Translations under genes and position numbers: made by a program | Notes under the pieces: model-generated | The model's input: only the letters and a program-made list of their open reading frames with translations | Database searches by the model: none | Told to the model about the DNA's origin: nothing | Source: Escherichia phage 4E8 | Strand: one strand, 5' to 3' | DNA: 64,000 nucleotides | Sequence record: OQ689734.1 | Part shown: positions 51,556 through 55,858 of the stretch, in pieces | Layout: each line of letters begins with the position of its first letter | How positions within the stretch are numbered: the stretch's first letter is position 1

Positions 51556-51582
51556 TAGCCCTCTGATACTCACGAGGGCTAT
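51556..51582 (-). repeat. conserved hairpin element, copy 1
   Basis: ATAGCCCTC-loop-GAGGGCTAT 9-bp stem 5 nt after stop of 51588 gene; near-identical copy at 55830. Confidence 0.5.
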
Positions 51583-51587
51583 AGATG

Positions 51588-51839
51588 TTACTCTGTGTCT
51601 CCGTCGAAGCGGAGGATTGCTGTCGGAACAGGAATAGCTGCCATGTCAAGCTCTAAACGGAAGAGATGACCTGTGCTCAACTGAACTGCTGTTACCGGCT
51701 TAGTGACACCATCAATAGAGGCAGAAGGGATTCGGATAAAGAATTCCCCCGGATATTCAACCGAACGAAACACATCTCCCGGTGTCATATCTTTTACTTG
51801 AACAGTAGGCTCAGGAGGTGTTTTATTGGAAATTTGCAT
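51588..51839 (-). CDS. small protein, GDVF-family paralog A
   Basis: MTPGDVF...FIRI...VTAVQLSTGHLFRL shared with five other small ORFs. Confidence 0.5.
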   Translation of the reverse strand: MQISNKTPPEPTVQVKDMTPGDVFRSVEYPGEFFIRIPSASIDGVTKPVTAVQLSTGHLFRLELDMAAIPVPTAILRFDGDTE

Positions 51840-52072
51840 TACAAACCTTTCTTAGCACGATCTTTGGCAGTCTTGCCAGTGCGAATACGGTGGGAAACAT
51901 TAACCAGTTCGCCGCCTTCGACGATGGTTACGCTTTTGTTTTTCGCAATATCGAATACAGTCTTCTCTGTACCGCCCAGACGAATCTGTTTAGGTTCGCT
52001 GTGGGTCTGAGTTGATTTAGACTGGAACTGGAACGGCTGACGGATGGCATCAATTGCACTTACTTTACTCAT
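51839..52072 (-). CDS. hypothetical basic protein
   Basis: start at MSKVS with AGGAG RBS (track ORF includes 8 upstream codons covering the RBS). Confidence 0.5.
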   Translation of the reverse strand: MSKVSAIDAIRQPFQFQSKSTQTHSEPKQIRLGGTEKTVFDIAKNKSVTIVEGGELVNVSHRIRTGKTAKDRAKKGL

Positions 52073-52305
52073 GGGGGAATAGCTCCTAAAAATCATGACT
52101 GCGTAGAGGGAATTCCCTACGCGAAAACGACGCTAAAAGAAGCGTCACAGTAGTTGAAAAGAGGTACAGAAACAGAGGTTATTTAGCTACCTTTTTCTGA
52201 CCGTTTACGAACCAGATAATTGAACCGTCGGGCTGTCGTTGACCGAAGCCTTTCATGGTTAGCATGTCTTCCGAAAACTCTTTAAAAGTAATCACTTACT
52301 TACCC

Positions 52306-52551
52306 TTACATTGGAGTTAATATAATCTCTGCTTTGGCAAACTTCTCGCCAACTTCGAGAGTATCAGCAACAGGACGAGGCACACCAGTACCCAAACAAA
52401 CAGCCCTTCGATACCCTCCAGTCACAGGCATCATCAAATAGATGACCTGATTATCATCTTCTTTTAAAGTGAAGATGTCAGCGATTGATAAGTCTTTAAC
52501 AAAGAGTTTCTTTTCTTCTTTGTTGTGAACCTTAATATGTATTGTGCTCAT
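52306..52551 (-). CDS. small protein, GDVF-family paralog B
   Basis: VKDLSIADIF...VIYLMM...AVCLGTGVPRPV. Confidence 0.45.
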   Translation of the reverse strand: MSTIHIKVHNKEEKKLFVKDLSIADIFTLKEDDNQVIYLMMPVTGGYRRAVCLGTGVPRPVADTLEVGEKFAKAEIILTPM

Positions 52552-52553
52552 AC

Positions 52554-52799
52554 CTACTCCTGAACCACAGACATACGAATCATTTCCACCGGAGTGTCAC
52601 CTTTCATAACACCCAGCACACCAGTCAGAAGATTAACTGTAGTAATCCAACCCTCTTCTACAGAGATCTTGTTGGACACATTATTAACACGCATGTAATA
52701 CTGAGGTGATGCTGTACCCCGCTGAACTACGAAAGGGTTTCCGGGGATGATAGTATCCAGCGGATGTGTGTTATCTTTGACCTTGGGGATAATTTTCAT
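52554..52799 (-). CDS. small protein, GDVF-family paralog C
   Basis: IIPGNPF...YYMRV...TTVNLLTGVLGVM. Confidence 0.5.
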   Translation of the reverse strand: MKIIPKVKDNTHPLDTIIPGNPFVVQRGTASPQYYMRVNNVSNKISVEEGWITTVNLLTGVLGVMKGDTPVEMIRMSVVQE

Positions 52800-52807
52800 C
52801 TTGATTC

Positions 52808-53119
52808 CTATTTAAGTTTAAGGCTGATATTAAGGTGCATACACGCCCTGTTCTGTACAGCGGCATAGCTTCTACCGAGCATGTCTGCCATTTTCTGAAT
52901 GGACATGAACCCAGCATTACGAATAACAAACTGATCTTCTTCTTCCGTCCACTTGACACGAAGAGTAGCTCTGGAAATTTTGAACTTGGTACAGGCTGTG
53001 TTAACAGCATTCTCTGTAACATTCATAATCAAAGCTATCTCAGGGATAGAATACTCTTTGATCAACCGTTTAAGATTCTCGATTTGCATCGGAGTCCATA
53101 TAGTTCTTCGTGCTTTCAT
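52808..53119 (-). CDS. Myb/SANT-like tandem-repeat DNA-binding protein
   Basis: two ~45-aa repeats each starting with W-T (WTPMQIENLKRLI... and WTEEEDQFVIRNA...MADMLGRSYAAVQNR). Confidence 0.55.
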   Translation of the reverse strand: MKARRTIWTPMQIENLKRLIKEYSIPEIALIMNVTENAVNTACTKFKISRATLRVKWTEEEDQFVIRNAGFMSIQKMADMLGRSYAAVQNRACMHLNISLKLK

Positions 53120-53413
53120 ACATCCTCCAATTAAACATTTATGTAAGACTTGCTTAGATAAAGATTCAATAAATAGGGGGAGGGGACGAATCCTCCCATA
53201 TCCTATTAGTTAAGTTTGCATGTAAGACCTAACAATCGGTTGCCTTTGTAGGATAAGCGTTATGCTTTTCCAGCACTAAACTCCCGCCCCCTTAGTGGGC
53301 TGGGTTATTAAAGGGTAACGCCCTTATGGGCTAGTTACGTGAAAGTTAGTTTGATAGGAGATCTGAAGTCCTATCTCAAAGGACTCTCGTAAGAATCCTT
53401 CACGATAAGTTCT

Positions 53414-53635
53414 TTAGTAAACTAAACCTACAGCCTTAGCGTCAGGCTGAGGAACTACTTTTGCACTAGGGCGATAACCATCTACTGAACCATTCCAAAG
53501 ATTGACACAGGTAATGTACCCATCGGTCTGAGTATCTGTTTTAATCCAGAAATGTTTATCATGACCAAAGATACTTCCGTTTGGCAGCGTGGACAGCTCA
53601 ACGGTTTTAAGTGACTGCTTAGAGTCTAGTTTCAT
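53414..53635 (-). CDS. small protein, GDVF-family paralog D
   Basis: LPNGSIF...FWIKT...ITCVNLWNGSVDGY. Confidence 0.45.
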   Translation of the reverse strand: MKLDSKQSLKTVELSTLPNGSIFGHDKHFWIKTDTQTDGYITCVNLWNGSVDGYRPSAKVVPQPDAKAVGLVY

Positions 53636-53644
53636 ATAAATTCC

Positions 53645-54401: not shown

Positions 54402-54414
54402 CTCACAATAGATT

Positions 54415-54491
54415 TGGTGCACCGTGTAGGACTCCAACCTACAACCCATTTCTTAGAAGGAAATTGCTCTCTGCAATTGAGCTAACGGCGC
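54415..54491 (-). tRNA. tRNA-Arg (anticodon UCU), CCA encoded
   Basis: hand-folded cloverleaf: acceptor GCGCCGT/ACGGTGC, D-arm GCTC/GAGC, anticodon stem ATTTC/GAAAT, loop CTTCTAA, T-stem GTAGG/CCTAC, discriminator A, CCA. Confidence 0.7.
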
Positions 54492-54499
54492 AGAATTAT

Positions 54500-54664
54500 T
54501 TAAATCATGTCACGCTTGGTAACATGACCACACACTTTACACTGCATAATATAGCGAAGACCTTTGTGCTTTGTCTCACCGTAATCGTCAGTAATTCTCA
54601 GTGTATATTTTTCAAGGATTACCCAATCATGCAGATGCACAAGACGTTTAAACCATTTGAACAT
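54500..54664 (-). CDS. small hypothetical protein with CxxC motif (54 aa)
   Basis: sub-threshold ORF, weak RBS. Confidence 0.25.
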   Translation of the reverse strand: MFKWFKRLVHLHDWVILEKYTLRITDDYGETKHKGLRYIMQCKVCGHVTKRDMI

Positions 54665-54666
54665 AA

Positions 54667-54843
54667 TCAGGAACCTTTAACAGCGAAAGAGACAGCTTCA
54701 TTAAGTGAGCGGAAACGTCCAACATACTGACCTGCGGCGGAAGTTACAACAAACCAATGGCCTACAAAAGTGATTCCAGCAATCCGTCGGTTGTCATCAT
54801 CAACTACTCTCCAGTAGTCTTTATGGATTTGTTTTACTTTCAC
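54667..54843 (-). CDS. small hypothetical protein (GTG start)
   Basis: 3' part of track ORF 54667-55017; 5' part of that ORF is the out-of-frame shadow of the 54851 gene. Confidence 0.35.
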   Translation of the reverse strand: MKVKQIHKDYWRVVDDDNRRIAGITFVGHWFVVTSAAGQYVGRFRSLNEAVSFAVKGS

Positions 54844-54850
54844 ATCAACC

Positions 54851-55102
54851 TCAAGCACATGCAGGGAGTGTAATGATCTCAGGCTTGCCTTTGAAATCTT
54901 CAAAGATACCCAAGAACGTAGGGCTATATGTGCCAGTGCAAACAAACTCATCAAAGAGTTCATTGTACGAGGGCTTAATCTTCCAAGCCCACACATAGCC
55001 CATCTTATCAATCGCAATGTGACGAGTGTTCAGAGGAACGGTCATCATCACACCATCAACTTCGATCACTTTGGTTATCAGTGCAGCTTGGAAGTTTTTC
55101 AT
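54851..55102 (-). CDS. hypothetical protein
   Basis: 83-aa ORF. Confidence 0.5.
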   Translation of the reverse strand: MKNFQAALITKVIEVDGVMMTVPLNTRHIAIDKMGYVWAWKIKPSYNELFDEFVCTGTYSPTFLGIFEDFKGKPEIITLPACA

Positions 55103-55278
55103 ACTTTACCTTTGATTCGCACATTGTTGATGTAACAGGAAGGACAAGGACGAACAACTTCCCCGCCCTCTTTGATTGTCTTAATCTCACTACGAGTAAT
55201 GTTCACACGAGCACCACAACAAGGAGAGTTAACATAAGAGTAACCGGATTGGGTATGTTTGATGATTTGCTTGTTCAT
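55099..55278 (-). CDS. small zinc-ribbon protein (59 aa)
   Basis: sub-threshold ORF with CCGARV ... CPSCY double CxxC; AGAGGT RBS; ATGA-type overlap with next gene. Confidence 0.4.
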   Translation of the reverse strand: MNKQIIKHTQSGYSYVNSPCCGARVNITRSEIKTIKEGGEVVRPCPSCYINNVRIKGKV

Positions 55279-55365
55279 ATTAGCAACCTCTTGTTAGTTT
55301 AAGTAAGAGTTGGCCCTTAATTAAAACAACAAAGGCCACCTATTTCTAGGCAGCCTCTTATTTAA

Positions 55366-55506
55366 TTAGCTATTGTAAGACCAATCACCCTGACGCTTGC
55401 GAATATTACCCATCAGACGCAGCATGGCAGACTCAATCTTCAGAGCACCATTTGCTACTGCATCCATACGCTCAGGACGGTTCATACGCTTGGTTGACTT
55501 CTTCAT
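55366..55506 (-). CDS. small basic hypothetical protein (46 aa)
   Basis: sub-threshold ORF MKKSTKRMNRPE..., weak RBS. Confidence 0.25.
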   Translation of the reverse strand: MKKSTKRMNRPERMDAVANGALKIESAMLRLMGNIRKRQGDWSYNS

Positions 55507-55829
55507 AACGTTCTCTCTTTGTTAGTGGAGGCATTATTGCCAGTTGATATAAGGGATAGCCCTAGTCAGGAGGCTAATTCTGACCGCGTACTCATTGCCG
55601 ACCCTCTCTGCCTAAGAGTTCAGGTTCTAGAGCTATCTCTTATTCCAACTGGTGAAGACCTCCTACCCCTAGGAGATCTCCCGAATCCCAAACCAATACG
55701 TACCCCTACGTAGTGGAAAGTCTACCGAAATTGAACAGGTTTTAGTCTAACACCGGATGTTCGAGCAAGCTCTCCCTAGCGGTGTGGCATATGCCTGATT
55801 GATATAGTTAATGAGGAACACCCTCACAT

Positions 55830-55858
55830 AGCCCTCTGATAAACACAAGGGCTATAAG
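55830..55858 (-). repeat. conserved hairpin element, copy 2
   Basis: ATAGCCCT-loop-AGGGCTAT 7 nt after stop of 55865 gene; flanks (CTCACAT...GTTACT) conserved with copy 1. Confidence 0.5.

What the first reader, a model, noticed from the sequence alone, without database searches (positions are those of the whole stretch)
51556..55858. Two near-identical hairpin elements placed just after stop codons
CTCACATAGCCCTCTGATA..CAC.AGGGCTATA occurs at 51551-51585 and 55826-55860, each within 5-9 nt of the stop of a minus-strand gene and followed by GTTACT. Read on the transcript, each forms an 8-9-bp stem (AUAGCCCU / AGGGCUAU) with a 10-12-nt loop and no U-tract, so they are not classical intrinsic terminators. 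The sequence conservation goes beyond what base-pairing alone needs, which suggests a protein- or RNase-recognised site (processing, attenuation or antitermination).
Basis: seen in the sequence. Interest (0 to 1): 0.5.

Follow-up and report, generated by a model that had tools for sequence, protein, structure and literature searches.

The report
Conserved structured RNA module after stop codons
The two look-alike hairpins are real and are the visible tip of a roughly 140-base folded RNA module, kept through three families of phiEco32-like phages and absent from RNA databases, that most likely marks where the phage's very long early messenger RNA is cut and stabilised, or where its transcription is kept going.

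Summary
A 34-nt repeat lies at 51550-51583 and 55823-55856 on the minus strand, 31/34 identical, 4 and 8 nt after the UAA stops of two minus-strand genes. None is expected by chance. The window is a phiEco32-like podophage (Kuravirus) and both sites lie inside its long sigma70-driven early transcription unit.

The hairpin is only part of the feature. It is the 10-bp upper stem of a 17-20-bp irregular hairpin whose lower stem contains the stop codon. An AU-rich linker, a 3-bp hairpin and a stem / 7x7 internal loop / hairpin domain (CUAGGGA...GAACAUC) follow.

The whole module, with compensatory base changes in every helix, occurs:
- twice per genome in about 100 Kuravirus/Suseptimavirus genomes;
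- once in Salmonella 7-11-like phages;
- once, diverged, in Citrovirus-like phages.

It matches no Rfam family, no E. coli DNA and not HK022 put.

The function is inferred, not shown. The layout matches T7 early RNase III processing signals, so I favour processing and stabilisation of the polycistronic early RNA (0.4). The downstream domain would then bind a conserved, probably host, factor. Terminator read-through control is the main rival (0.25).

Side findings are a cluster of rrn-type boxA sequences after the early promoters and a conserved DnaA box at site A.

The parts
51542..51595 (-). Site A, domain 1: an extended irregular hairpin. The lower stem (CAGAGUA / UAUUCUG in this phage) contains the UAA stop at 51590-51588. 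A small internal loop carries the conserved 3' strand GUGAG.
   Evidence: MFE fold -28 kcal/mol, z = -4.5. The repeat is at 51550-51583. A lower stem is predicted in nearly all of the 34 distinct variants.
51513..51541 (-). Site A linker: AU-rich and predicted single-stranded, with the semi-conserved core CUCAAyUAACCUAAUC.
   Evidence: Alignments. It is conserved in 7-11.
51455..51512 (-). Site A, domain 2. HP2 is CCC-GUAU-GGG. P3 has a 6-bp lower stem (CCGAUG/CGUCGG), a conserved 7x7 internal loop (CUAGGGA / GAACAUC) and the variable hairpin GAGGA-AUAA-UCCUC.
   Evidence: RNAalifold consensus. Covariation counts: 98.3% of cells paired against 83.5% in shuffles and 28-59% when slid. Covariance-model hit of 82.7 bits.
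51430..51438 (-). Perfect DnaA box TTATCCACA, 16 nt after domain 2 (site A only).
   Evidence: In most related loci scanned it is the only perfect box, and it always sits at the same distance from the element in Kuravirus and 7-11-like phages.
51366..51391 (-). Canonical intrinsic terminator (GGCUCUC-UUAU-GAGAGUCC + U6). It lies about 20 nt before the start codon of the next gene, ORF 51179..51346.
   Evidence: It is conserved with stem and loop changes in phiEco32, SU10, EcoN5, LAMP and 7-11, and is annotated as a terminator in the SU7 and 7-11 records.
55817..55866 (-). Site B, domain 1: an extended irregular hairpin. The lower stem AACACC/GGUGUU overlaps the UAA stop at 55867-55865. The internal loop is GACU / GUGAG.
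   Evidence: MFE -26.4 kcal/mol, z = -4.0. A compensatory variant AACAUC/GAUGUU occurs in ECBP2 and a metagenome contig.
55799..55816 (-). Site B linker (CCUCAUUAACUAUAUCAAUC).
55745..55798 (-). Site B, domain 2. HP2 is GGC-AUAU-GCC. P3 has the lower stem ACACCG/CGGUGU, the same 7x7 internal loop CUAGGGA / GAACAUC, and the hairpin GAGC-UU-GCUC.
   Evidence: Covariance-model hit of 60.9 bits.
55366..55506 (-). Context: the first gene after site B, a 46-aa basic protein homologous to phiEco32 gp112 (PHROG 13305, function unknown). A terminator-like hairpin follows it at 55358-55331.
   Evidence: The gene is found in the same set of phages as the RNA module.

Best explanation
Each site is a cis-acting structured RNA module in an untranslated gap of the phage's long sigma70-driven early transcript.

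I think it works like the early RNase III processing signals of phage T7. Once the terminating ribosome has left, the 17-20-bp irregular hairpin folds. A host double-strand-specific endonuclease, most likely RNase III, cuts once in or beside the small internal loop, on the GUGAG side. The upstream message then ends in a stable 3' hairpin that blocks exonucleases.

Domain 2 (HP2 plus the P3 stem / 7x7 purine-rich internal loop / hairpin) then sits near the new 5' end of the downstream message. Its invariant non-Watson-Crick loop would be a docking site for a conserved, probably host-encoded, protein or complex that sets the stability or the further transcription and translation of the downstream block.

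Shown: the structure, its covariation, its conservation, its position and its orientation. Inferred: the cleavage, the enzyme and the binding partner.
For: 1. The module is real and under selection as a folded strand.
   - RNAalifold independently finds HP2, P3 and HP3, with compensatory changes in 5 of 12 pairs.
   - 98.3% of cells are paired, against 83.5% in shuffles and 28-59% when partners are slid.
   - The HP1 upper stem is 98.7% paired with 2 compensatory pairs.
   - The lower stem covaries between sites (AGUAAC/GUUAUU, AACACC/GGUGUU, AACAUC/GAUGUU).
   - G-U pairs and a single orientation point to the sense strand.
2. Conservation is deep. There are 2 copies in about 100 Kuravirus/Suseptimavirus genomes, 1 in 7-11-like Grimontviridae and diverged copies in Citrovirus-like phages. 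The neighbouring genes differ, and at site A the upstream gene differs even among Kuraviruses.
3. The layout equals that of T7 early RNase III sites, folded here for comparison. These are 10-bp hairpins with near-identical sequence, starting a few nt after stop codons, with a conserved 3' flank and no U tract, in a host-RNAP polycistronic early transcript. The identity and positions of those T7 sites come from my own knowledge of Dunn and Studier.
4. Both sites lie inside one long early transcription unit. Consensus sigma70 promoters occur only at 60.9-63.3 kb and none occurs between 51.4 and 33 kb. Published work places all early promoters at the right end and classes genes 69-125 as early (PMC8948821, PMC4281155). 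Segmenting and stabilising such an RNA is a plausible need.
5. The position next to the HP3 helix in the internal loop is only ever A.G, A.A or C.A, never a Watson-Crick pair. This fits a structured non-canonical loop that something recognises.
Against: - No transcript-end or cleavage data exist for any of these phages.
- RNase III has little sequence specificity, so the near-invariance of UAUAGC/GCUAU and GUGAG across three phage families is more than that enzyme would demand.
- There are only two sites per genome, against five in the T7 early region.
- The lower stems are short (6-9 bp), and in the MAG contig L040 domain 1 is replaced by unrelated hairpins while domain 2 is kept.
- The processing model gives no specific reason for domain 2, for the conserved terminator 60-70 nt downstream at site A, or for the DnaA box.
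Confidence: 0.4

Rival explanations
1. The module is a transcription antitermination or termination-control signal that works like lambda nut, HK022 put or the rrn spacer antiterminator. The nascent RNA, above all the invariant P3 internal loop and the hairpin base, binds RNA polymerase, Nus factors or a small phage protein. The elongation complex then reads through the intrinsic terminators that follow: 51391-51374 after site A and 55358-55331 after site B.
For: - Site A is followed at a fixed distance by a strong terminator lying about 20 nt before the next gene's start codon. This terminator is conserved from Kuravirus to 7-11.
- No promoter is evident downstream for about 16 kb, so read-through is obligatory.
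- The 7-11 authors state that an antitermination strategy 'remains to be defined' (PMC8948821).
- Several features parallel nutL/nutR: two copies per genome in the sense orientation, one just after a stop codon, and one directly upstream of a small basic protein gene (gp112 homologue) found in the same phages.
- Invariant unpaired nucleotides across phage families that infect enterobacteria fit a host-machine ligand.
Against: - The early leader already carries canonical rrn-type boxA sequences right after the promoters. These could account for processivity without this module.
- Two to three good terminators (59015-58988, 57691-57674, 57606-57587) lie upstream of site B with no module before them.
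- Site B has no terminator for about 390 nt.
- The linker's boxA resemblance is not significant: it is one of 121 three-mismatch hits, and site A does not match at all.
- There is no similarity to put, and gp112 has no known domain.
Confidence: 0.25
2. The module, or the RNA released from it, acts in trans as a stable small RNA or protein sponge. At site A this would be a 3'-UTR-type sRNA ending at the terminator. It would titrate or guide a host factor during takeover.
For: - Site A runs from a stop codon to a terminator with a U6 tail preceded by an AU-rich stretch, the usual anatomy of 3'-UTR-derived Hfq-type sRNAs.
- G-rich loop motifs recur. UAGGG occurs in the P3 loop. Two hairpins in the site B leader carry identical UAGGGGUA loops and covarying stems, and the same loop occurs in Klyazma. 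Repeated motifs suggest repeated binding sites for one factor.
Against: - Site B has no terminator after the module, so the two copies would yield very different RNAs.
- No complementarity to a host target was found, and there is no similarity to E. coli DNA or to any Rfam sRNA.
- The GGA motif needed for CsrA is lost in the CUAGGGC variants.
Confidence: 0.1
3. The conservation serves the DNA. The sites would be module boundaries for recombinational gene shuffling, like the promoter-early stem-loop cassettes of T4-type phages, or part of a DnaA-dependent replication or priming signal.
For: - The genes upstream of the module differ between relatives, yet the junction AGUAAC is kept.
- The site-A hairpin of this lineage carries a site-B-type loop, which suggests exchange between the copies.
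- A perfect DnaA box is invariant at site A.
Against: - Compensatory changes and G-U pairs in four helices show selection on a folded single strand of one polarity. A double-stranded recombination or protein-binding site would not show this.
- No promoter is present, so the defining part of the T4 cassettes is missing.
- The DnaA box is absent from site B in relatives and from the Citrovirus-like copies.
Confidence: 0.1

Closest known systems
Phage T7 early RNase III processing signals (R0.3, R0.5, R1, R1.1, R1.3)
   Same: They are about 10-bp hairpins of near-identical sequence that begin a few nt after stop codons in a polycistronic early transcript made by host RNA polymerase. They have a conserved 3' flank, no U tract, and an irregular lower stem or internal loop (T7 folded; this element).
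   Different: There is no sequence homology. There are only 2 sites per genome, not 5 or more. The lower stem contains the stop codon. Each site is coupled to a second conserved domain (HP2/P3) that T7 sites lack. Cleavage is untested.
Lambda nutL/nutR (boxA + boxB) with N protein
   Same: There are two sense-strand copies in the early operons. One lies right after a stop codon (as nutR does after cro) and one lies just upstream of a small basic protein gene (as nutL does before N). Terminators lie downstream. The hairpin stem core GCCCU/AGGGC is the same as in lambda boxB (own knowledge).
   Different: The loops are 10 nt or UUCG-type, not the GNRA-like pentaloop. No significant boxA lies in the module, since the true boxA copies sit at the promoters. 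No N homologue was detected.
HK022 put RNAs
   Same: They are cis-acting structured RNAs in two similar copies per genome, whose sequence is conserved because of a host-machine ligand.
   Different: put is about 70 nt with two stems and lies close to the promoters. The covariance model of domain 2 finds nothing in HK022. The present module is about 140 nt with four helices and lies 5-10 kb from the promoters.
Promoter-early stem-loop (PeSL) cassettes of T4-type phages
   Same: They are repeated intergenic stem-loop units at the borders of variable early gene blocks.
   Different: PeSLs carry an early promoter. No sigma70 or gp36-type promoter is present here.

Membership tests
Intrinsic (Rho-independent) terminator | G+C-rich hairpin immediately followed by a U tract | tested here: not met
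   The hairpin is followed by GUGAG(C/G). The terminator scan does not list it and lists a separate terminator at 51391-51374.
T7-type RNase III processing signal | Irregular hairpin (about 10-bp upper stem, internal loop, lower stem) in an intercistronic gap of a polycistronic transcript | tested here: met
   A 10-bp upper stem, a small internal loop and a 6-9-bp lower stem are predicted in window sites A and B, phiEco32, 7-11 and Klyazma, with z from -3.5 to -4.5. T7 sites folded for comparison.
T7-type RNase III processing signal | Single cleavage by RNase III in the internal loop, in vivo and in vitro | not testable with these tools
   No transcript-end data are held. Papers on phiEco32 and 7-11 transcription do not map these sites.
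Lambda-type nut site | boxA (CGCUCUUA / GCUCUUUAACAA) next to the hairpin | tested here: not met
   The site B linker CCTCATTAACTA has 3 mismatches and is one of 121 such hits in the window. Site A is not matched. Exact and 1-mismatch boxA copies lie elsewhere, at 60433-61387.
Lambda-type nut site | boxB: 5-bp stem with a GNRA-like pentaloop bound by an arginine-rich N protein | tested here: not met
   The loops are GUGAGUAUCA, GUGUUUAUCA, UUCG, CUCG, UCCG or CCGA. No N-like family was found for neighbouring proteins.
HK022 put RNA | About 70-nt two-stem RNA just downstream of an early promoter, homologous to putL/putR | tested here: not met
   The covariance model R1 gives no hit better than E = 1.5 in the HK022 genome. 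The sites lie about 5 and 9 kb from the nearest consensus promoter.
Any Rfam 15 family / tRNA | Score at or near a family's gathering threshold, or an ARAGORN call | tested here: not met
   Only tRNA-Arg at 54415-54491 passes. Permissive scans of both gaps give only sub-threshold chance hits.
T4-type PeSL cassette | Early sigma70 promoter joined to the stem-loop | tested here: not met
   There are no promoter-like sites in either gap on the minus strand and no gp36 motif TAATGTATA nearby.

The most novel reading that the evidence does not exclude
The module is a new class of RNA-polymerase- or Nus-complex-binding antiterminator RNA in virulent phages. It would reinforce or reload the boxA-initiated antitermination complex several kilobases into a transcript of roughly 25 kb or more, so that the complex passes strong intrinsic terminators. 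Folding would be gated by ribosome release at the stop codon embedded in its first helix. This would be the undefined antitermination strategy postulated for 7-11 and phiEco32.
Probability: 0.2. Interest if true: 0.75.

Novelty: new variant of a known kind. Interest (0 to 1): 0.55.

Why it matters
phiEco32-like phages are a model for how a phage takes over host RNA polymerase through its own sigma factor and the inhibitor gp79. How their long early transcripts survive and pass internal terminators is an acknowledged gap (PMC8948821).

This work supplies a precisely bounded RNA structure supported by covariation, conserved across three phage families and absent from Rfam. It also finds a conserved cluster of rrn-type boxA sequences at the early promoters. 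Both are directly testable with end-mapping in rnc and nus mutants and with terminator read-through reporters.

If the module is a processing signal, T7-style RNase III punctuation extends to an unrelated phage group. If it binds the elongation complex, it is a new antiterminator RNA. Either way it should be annotated in about 100 genomes, several of them therapeutic candidates, where it is currently blank or overlapped by spurious ORFs.

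Tried and rejected
- **Known RNA families.** The Rfam gathering scan of the whole window and permissive scans of both gaps gave only tRNA-Arg and chance hits. ARAGORN found no tRNA-like gene at the sites.
- **Sigma70 promoter in the module.** No scan hits were found, and manual -35/-10 spacing fails or is not shared by A and B.
- **gp36 (phage sigma) promoter.** TAATGTATA is absent near both sites.
- **boxA in the linker.** Not significant.
- **Homology to HK022 put.** None.
- **Host origin or mimicry.** There is no blastn match in 5,426 E. 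coli genomes. The exact-pattern scan of 185k species genomes found only two mis-binned phage contigs.
- **T4 RegB (GGAG) or CsrA (GGA) sites in the P3 loop.** Rejected, because the natural variant CUAGGGC lacks both motifs.
- **RNase III action on P3 itself.** Judged unlikely because its helices are too short (6-7 and 3-6 bp).
- **gp112 homologue as a dedicated partner.** It occurs in the same phage clade, but that is not independent evidence. It is not adjacent to the module in 7-11 and has no known domain.
- **Second DnaA box at 55896-55904.** It lies in a gene specific to this phage and is not conserved, so it is treated as coincidence.
- **L025 metagenome hit.** Its flanking helices do not pair, so it is treated as a chance match.
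- **Unavailable papers.** The phiEco32 genome and transcription papers (Savalia 2008, Pavlova 2012) are not held in the library.

Full report
**Observation.** On the minus strand the 34-mer TATAGCCCTyGTGnnTATCAGAGGGCTATGTGAG occurs at 51550-51583 and 55823-55856. It occurs nowhere else in the window even with three mismatches, and none of 100 shuffles gave a match. The two copies are 91% identical. Each begins a few bases after the UAA stop of a minus-strand ORF. ORF 51588..51839 ends 4 nt before the repeat and ORF 55865..56176 ends 8 nt before it. No U tract follows.

**What the window is.** The region is 98% identical to Escherichia phage PAS59 and 87-93% identical to ECBP2, SU7 and other Gordonclarkvirinae, the phiEco32-like podophages. 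In these phages the small-ORF early cluster is transcribed leftward, which is the minus strand here.

**Where the promoters are.** Consensus sigma70 promoters occur only at 63288-63261, 61339-61312 and 60888-60860. No strong sigma70-like site lies on the minus strand between 51.4 and 33 kb. Exact gp36-type motifs lie at 14154, 23784, 23855 and 30563. This agrees with the literature. phiEco32 has four sigma70 early promoters at the start of the early cluster and gp36 promoters before genes 6, 13, 26, 40, 58 and 68 (PMC8948821). In SU10 genes 69-125 are classed as early, with one promoter before gene 125 and three in the 120/121 spacer (PMC4281155). Both sites therefore lie deep inside one long early transcription unit, about 5 and 9 kb from the nearest promoter.

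**The repeat is much longer than the hairpin.** Aligning the two gaps shows further shared blocks about 60 nt downstream on the transcript. GCTAGGGAGAG lies at 51484-51494 and 55770-55780. CTCGAACATCCG lies at 51464-51475 and 55754-55765. Across 47 distinct instances from phage records, IMG/VR and metagenomes the same order holds:
1. The stop codon within (A/G)(G/A)U(A/G)AC.
2. Hairpin HP1, with invariant base UAUAGC...GCUAU followed by GUGAG or UGGAG.
3. An AU-rich linker with the core CUCAnyUAAC.
4. A 3-bp hairpin HP2 (CCC-GUAU-GGG, GGC-AUAU-GCC, GCC-AUAU-GGC or GCC-GUAU-GGC).
5. P3: a 6-7-bp stem enclosing a 7x7 internal loop (CUAGGG[A/C] / [G/A]AACAUC) and a variable hairpin that starts GAG...CUC.

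**Structure and covariation of domain 2.** RNAalifold, run on a structure-blind MAFFT alignment of HP2 and P3, predicts exactly these helices. Compensatory changes occur in 5 of 12 pairs. 98.3% of cells are paired, against 83.5% in column shuffles (0/500 as high) and 28-59% when partners are slid. The P3 lower stem occurs as CCGAUG/CGUCGG, ACACCG/CGGUGU, UCACCG/CGGUGA, UUCGGUG/CGCCGAA and AAUAGCG/CGCUAUU. The loop position next to the upper helix is A.G, A.A or C.A and never Watson-Crick. That pattern is typical of a structured non-canonical pair.

**Structure and covariation of domain 1.** The HP1 upper stem is mostly invariant but has two compensatory pairs. HP1 is also only the top of a longer hairpin. 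The stop codon and the last sense codons pair with the sequence just after GUGAG. The pairs are AGUAAC/GUUAUU at site A of most phages, a shifted CAGAGUA/UAUUCUG in this window, AACACC/GGUGUU at site B, and a compensatory AACAUC/GAUGUU in ECBP2. This gives a 17-20-bp irregular hairpin with z-scores of -3.5 to -4.5 in five divergent representatives. A lower stem is predicted in nearly all 34 variants. G-U pairs and a single orientation show that the sense strand is the folded one.

**Distribution.**
- The 46-nt hairpin probe hits 98 phage records, all Escherichia or Shigella Gordonclarkvirinae, mostly at two places per genome.
- A covariance model of domain 2 finds exactly two copies per Kuravirus. 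EcoN5 has three because of a local duplication. Salmonella phages 7-11 and pSal-SNUABM-01 (Grimontviridae) each have one. No reverse-strand or extra copies exist.
- In 7-11 the whole site-A gap is kept, including the downstream terminator, although only about 41 ORFs are shared with phiEco32.
- A 48.7-kb contig binned as a Flavobacterium MAG is related to Citrobacter phage CVT22. It carries domain 2 with an exact internal loop and a new covarying stem, after unrelated hairpins.
- Klebsiella phage Klyazma keeps UAUAGC...GCUAUGUGGGAG and a P3 with CUAGGAA...CAUC. CVT22 keeps the architecture with diverged loops.
- Nothing similar exists in Rfam, in 5,426 E. coli genomes or in HK022.
- In this window's lineage (with PAS59, SU7, ECBP2) the site-A loop resembles the site-B loop.

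**Context of each site.**
- Site A is followed by a perfect DnaA box (51430-51438), a weak hairpin, and a canonical terminator (51391-51374 plus U6) about 20 nt before the start codon of the gp90 homologue. The terminator is conserved, with stem and loop changes, in all Kuraviruses and in 7-11. With no promoter downstream, it must be read through to express about 16 kb of genes.
- Site B is followed by a conserved 240-nt leader, a 46-aa basic protein (gp112 homologue, PHROG 13305) and then a terminator-like hairpin at 55358-55331.

**Most likely mechanism.** I folded the T7 early intercistronic regions for comparison. They show 10-bp hairpins of near-identical sequence (AAGGUC...GUGGCCUU) that start 4-13 nt after stop codons, with a conserved 3' flank (UAUGAUU) and no U tract. 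From my own knowledge these are the RNase III sites R0.5, R1, R1.1 and R1.3, cut once on the 3' side to leave a stabilising 3' hairpin. Domain 1 has the same layout, size and placement in a host-polymerase polycistronic early RNA. I therefore favour an RNase III-type processing and stabilisation signal (0.4). Domain 2 would be a docking site for a conserved factor near the new 5' end. Because the stop codon is inside the lower stem, folding would wait for ribosome release. All of this is inference. No end-mapping exists.

**Main rival (0.25).** The rival is control of terminator read-through, as with nut or put. In its favour are the conserved site-A terminator, the obligatory read-through, two sense copies, the nutR-like position after a stop, the nutL-like position before a small basic gene, and the explicit statement that 7-11 antitermination 'remains to be defined'. 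Against it are these points:
- Testing the linker for boxA showed that it is not significant.
- The early leader carries one exact rrn boxA (GCTCTTTAACAA, 60758-60769) and four one-mismatch copies (60433-61387), all on the transcript strand beside the promoters. The cluster is conserved in every Kuravirus examined, and single exact copies occur in Klyazma and Pecta. Processive antitermination may thus already be set up at the promoters.
- Good terminators at 59015 and 57606 precede site B with no module before them.

**Lesser rivals.** One is a trans-acting sRNA or sponge (0.1). The other is a DNA-level role in recombination or DnaA-dependent replication (0.1). Strand-specific covariation argues against the DNA-level role.

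**Verdict.** The finding is real and larger than reported. It is an undescribed, deeply conserved RNA structure whose function is open between two known kinds of phage cis-elements. I rate it a new variant of a known kind, with interest 0.55.

Noticed in passing
window 60433-61387, minus strand (boxA copies at 60758-60769, 60991-61002, 61266-61277, 61376-61387, 60433-60444): One exact E. coli rrn boxA (GCTCTTTAACAATTTA) and four one-mismatch copies lie on the early-transcript strand. All are inside the 1.6-kb non-coding leader that also holds the consensus sigma70 early promoters, and the exact copy is preceded by short hairpins, as in rrn leaders. About 0.3 such hits are expected in the whole window. 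The cluster is conserved in PAS59, phiEco32, EcoN5 and SU10, and single exact copies occur near the early end of Klyazma and Pecta. No paper in the library mentions boxA together with phiEco32. This suggests Nus-factor antitermination of the early transcripts.
   Followed up: partly
window 51430-51438, minus strand: A perfect DnaA box TTATCCACA lies 16 nt after domain 2 at site A. It is invariant at the same distance in all Kuraviruses examined and in 7-11-like phages, and it is the only perfect box in most of those 23-39-kb loci. A second perfect box at 55896-55904 (+) lies inside a gene specific to this phage and is not conserved.
   Followed up: partly
window 55716-55693 and 55682-55654, minus strand; L043 about 2845-2880: The conserved 240-nt leader between site B and the gp112 homologue holds two hairpins with identical 8-nt loops UAGGGGUA and covarying stems. 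The same loop sits in a hairpin just before the next gene in Klebsiella phage Klyazma. Together with CUAGGG in the P3 loop, this looks like a repeated recognition motif for an unknown factor.
   Followed up: partly
window 55366-55506, minus strand: A 46-aa basic protein (gp112 homologue, core KRMNRPxxMxxxxNGALKxE) of unknown function is one of the few early proteins shared by Kuraviruses and 7-11-like phages. It is always the first gene after site B in Kuraviruses.
   Followed up: partly
L005 (EcoN5) 13653-13797 and 15171-15315: Phage EcoN5 carries a tandem duplication of about 1.5 kb that includes the site-A module, its DnaA box and the gp91-gp89-like genes. This gives three module copies.
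   Followed up: no
L018 (phage 7-11) 7072-7784: A 700-nt non-coding stretch lies after the 7-11 gp112 homologue. It contains T-arm-like sequences (GGTTCGAATCC, GGTTCGACTCC) that suggest unannotated or degenerate tRNA genes.
   Followed up: no
L040 (MAG contig JBOFGJ010000684.1) 1978-5668: The contig is binned as Flavobacterium but is a CVT22-like phage. At least six of its small early proteins end in the same acidic tail (E/D)EENE.
   Followed up: no
window 59015-58988, 57691-57674, 57606-57587, minus strand: Several good intrinsic terminators lie inside the early transcription unit, upstream of site B, with no promoter after them. Substantial read-through must therefore occur there as well.
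   Followed up: no
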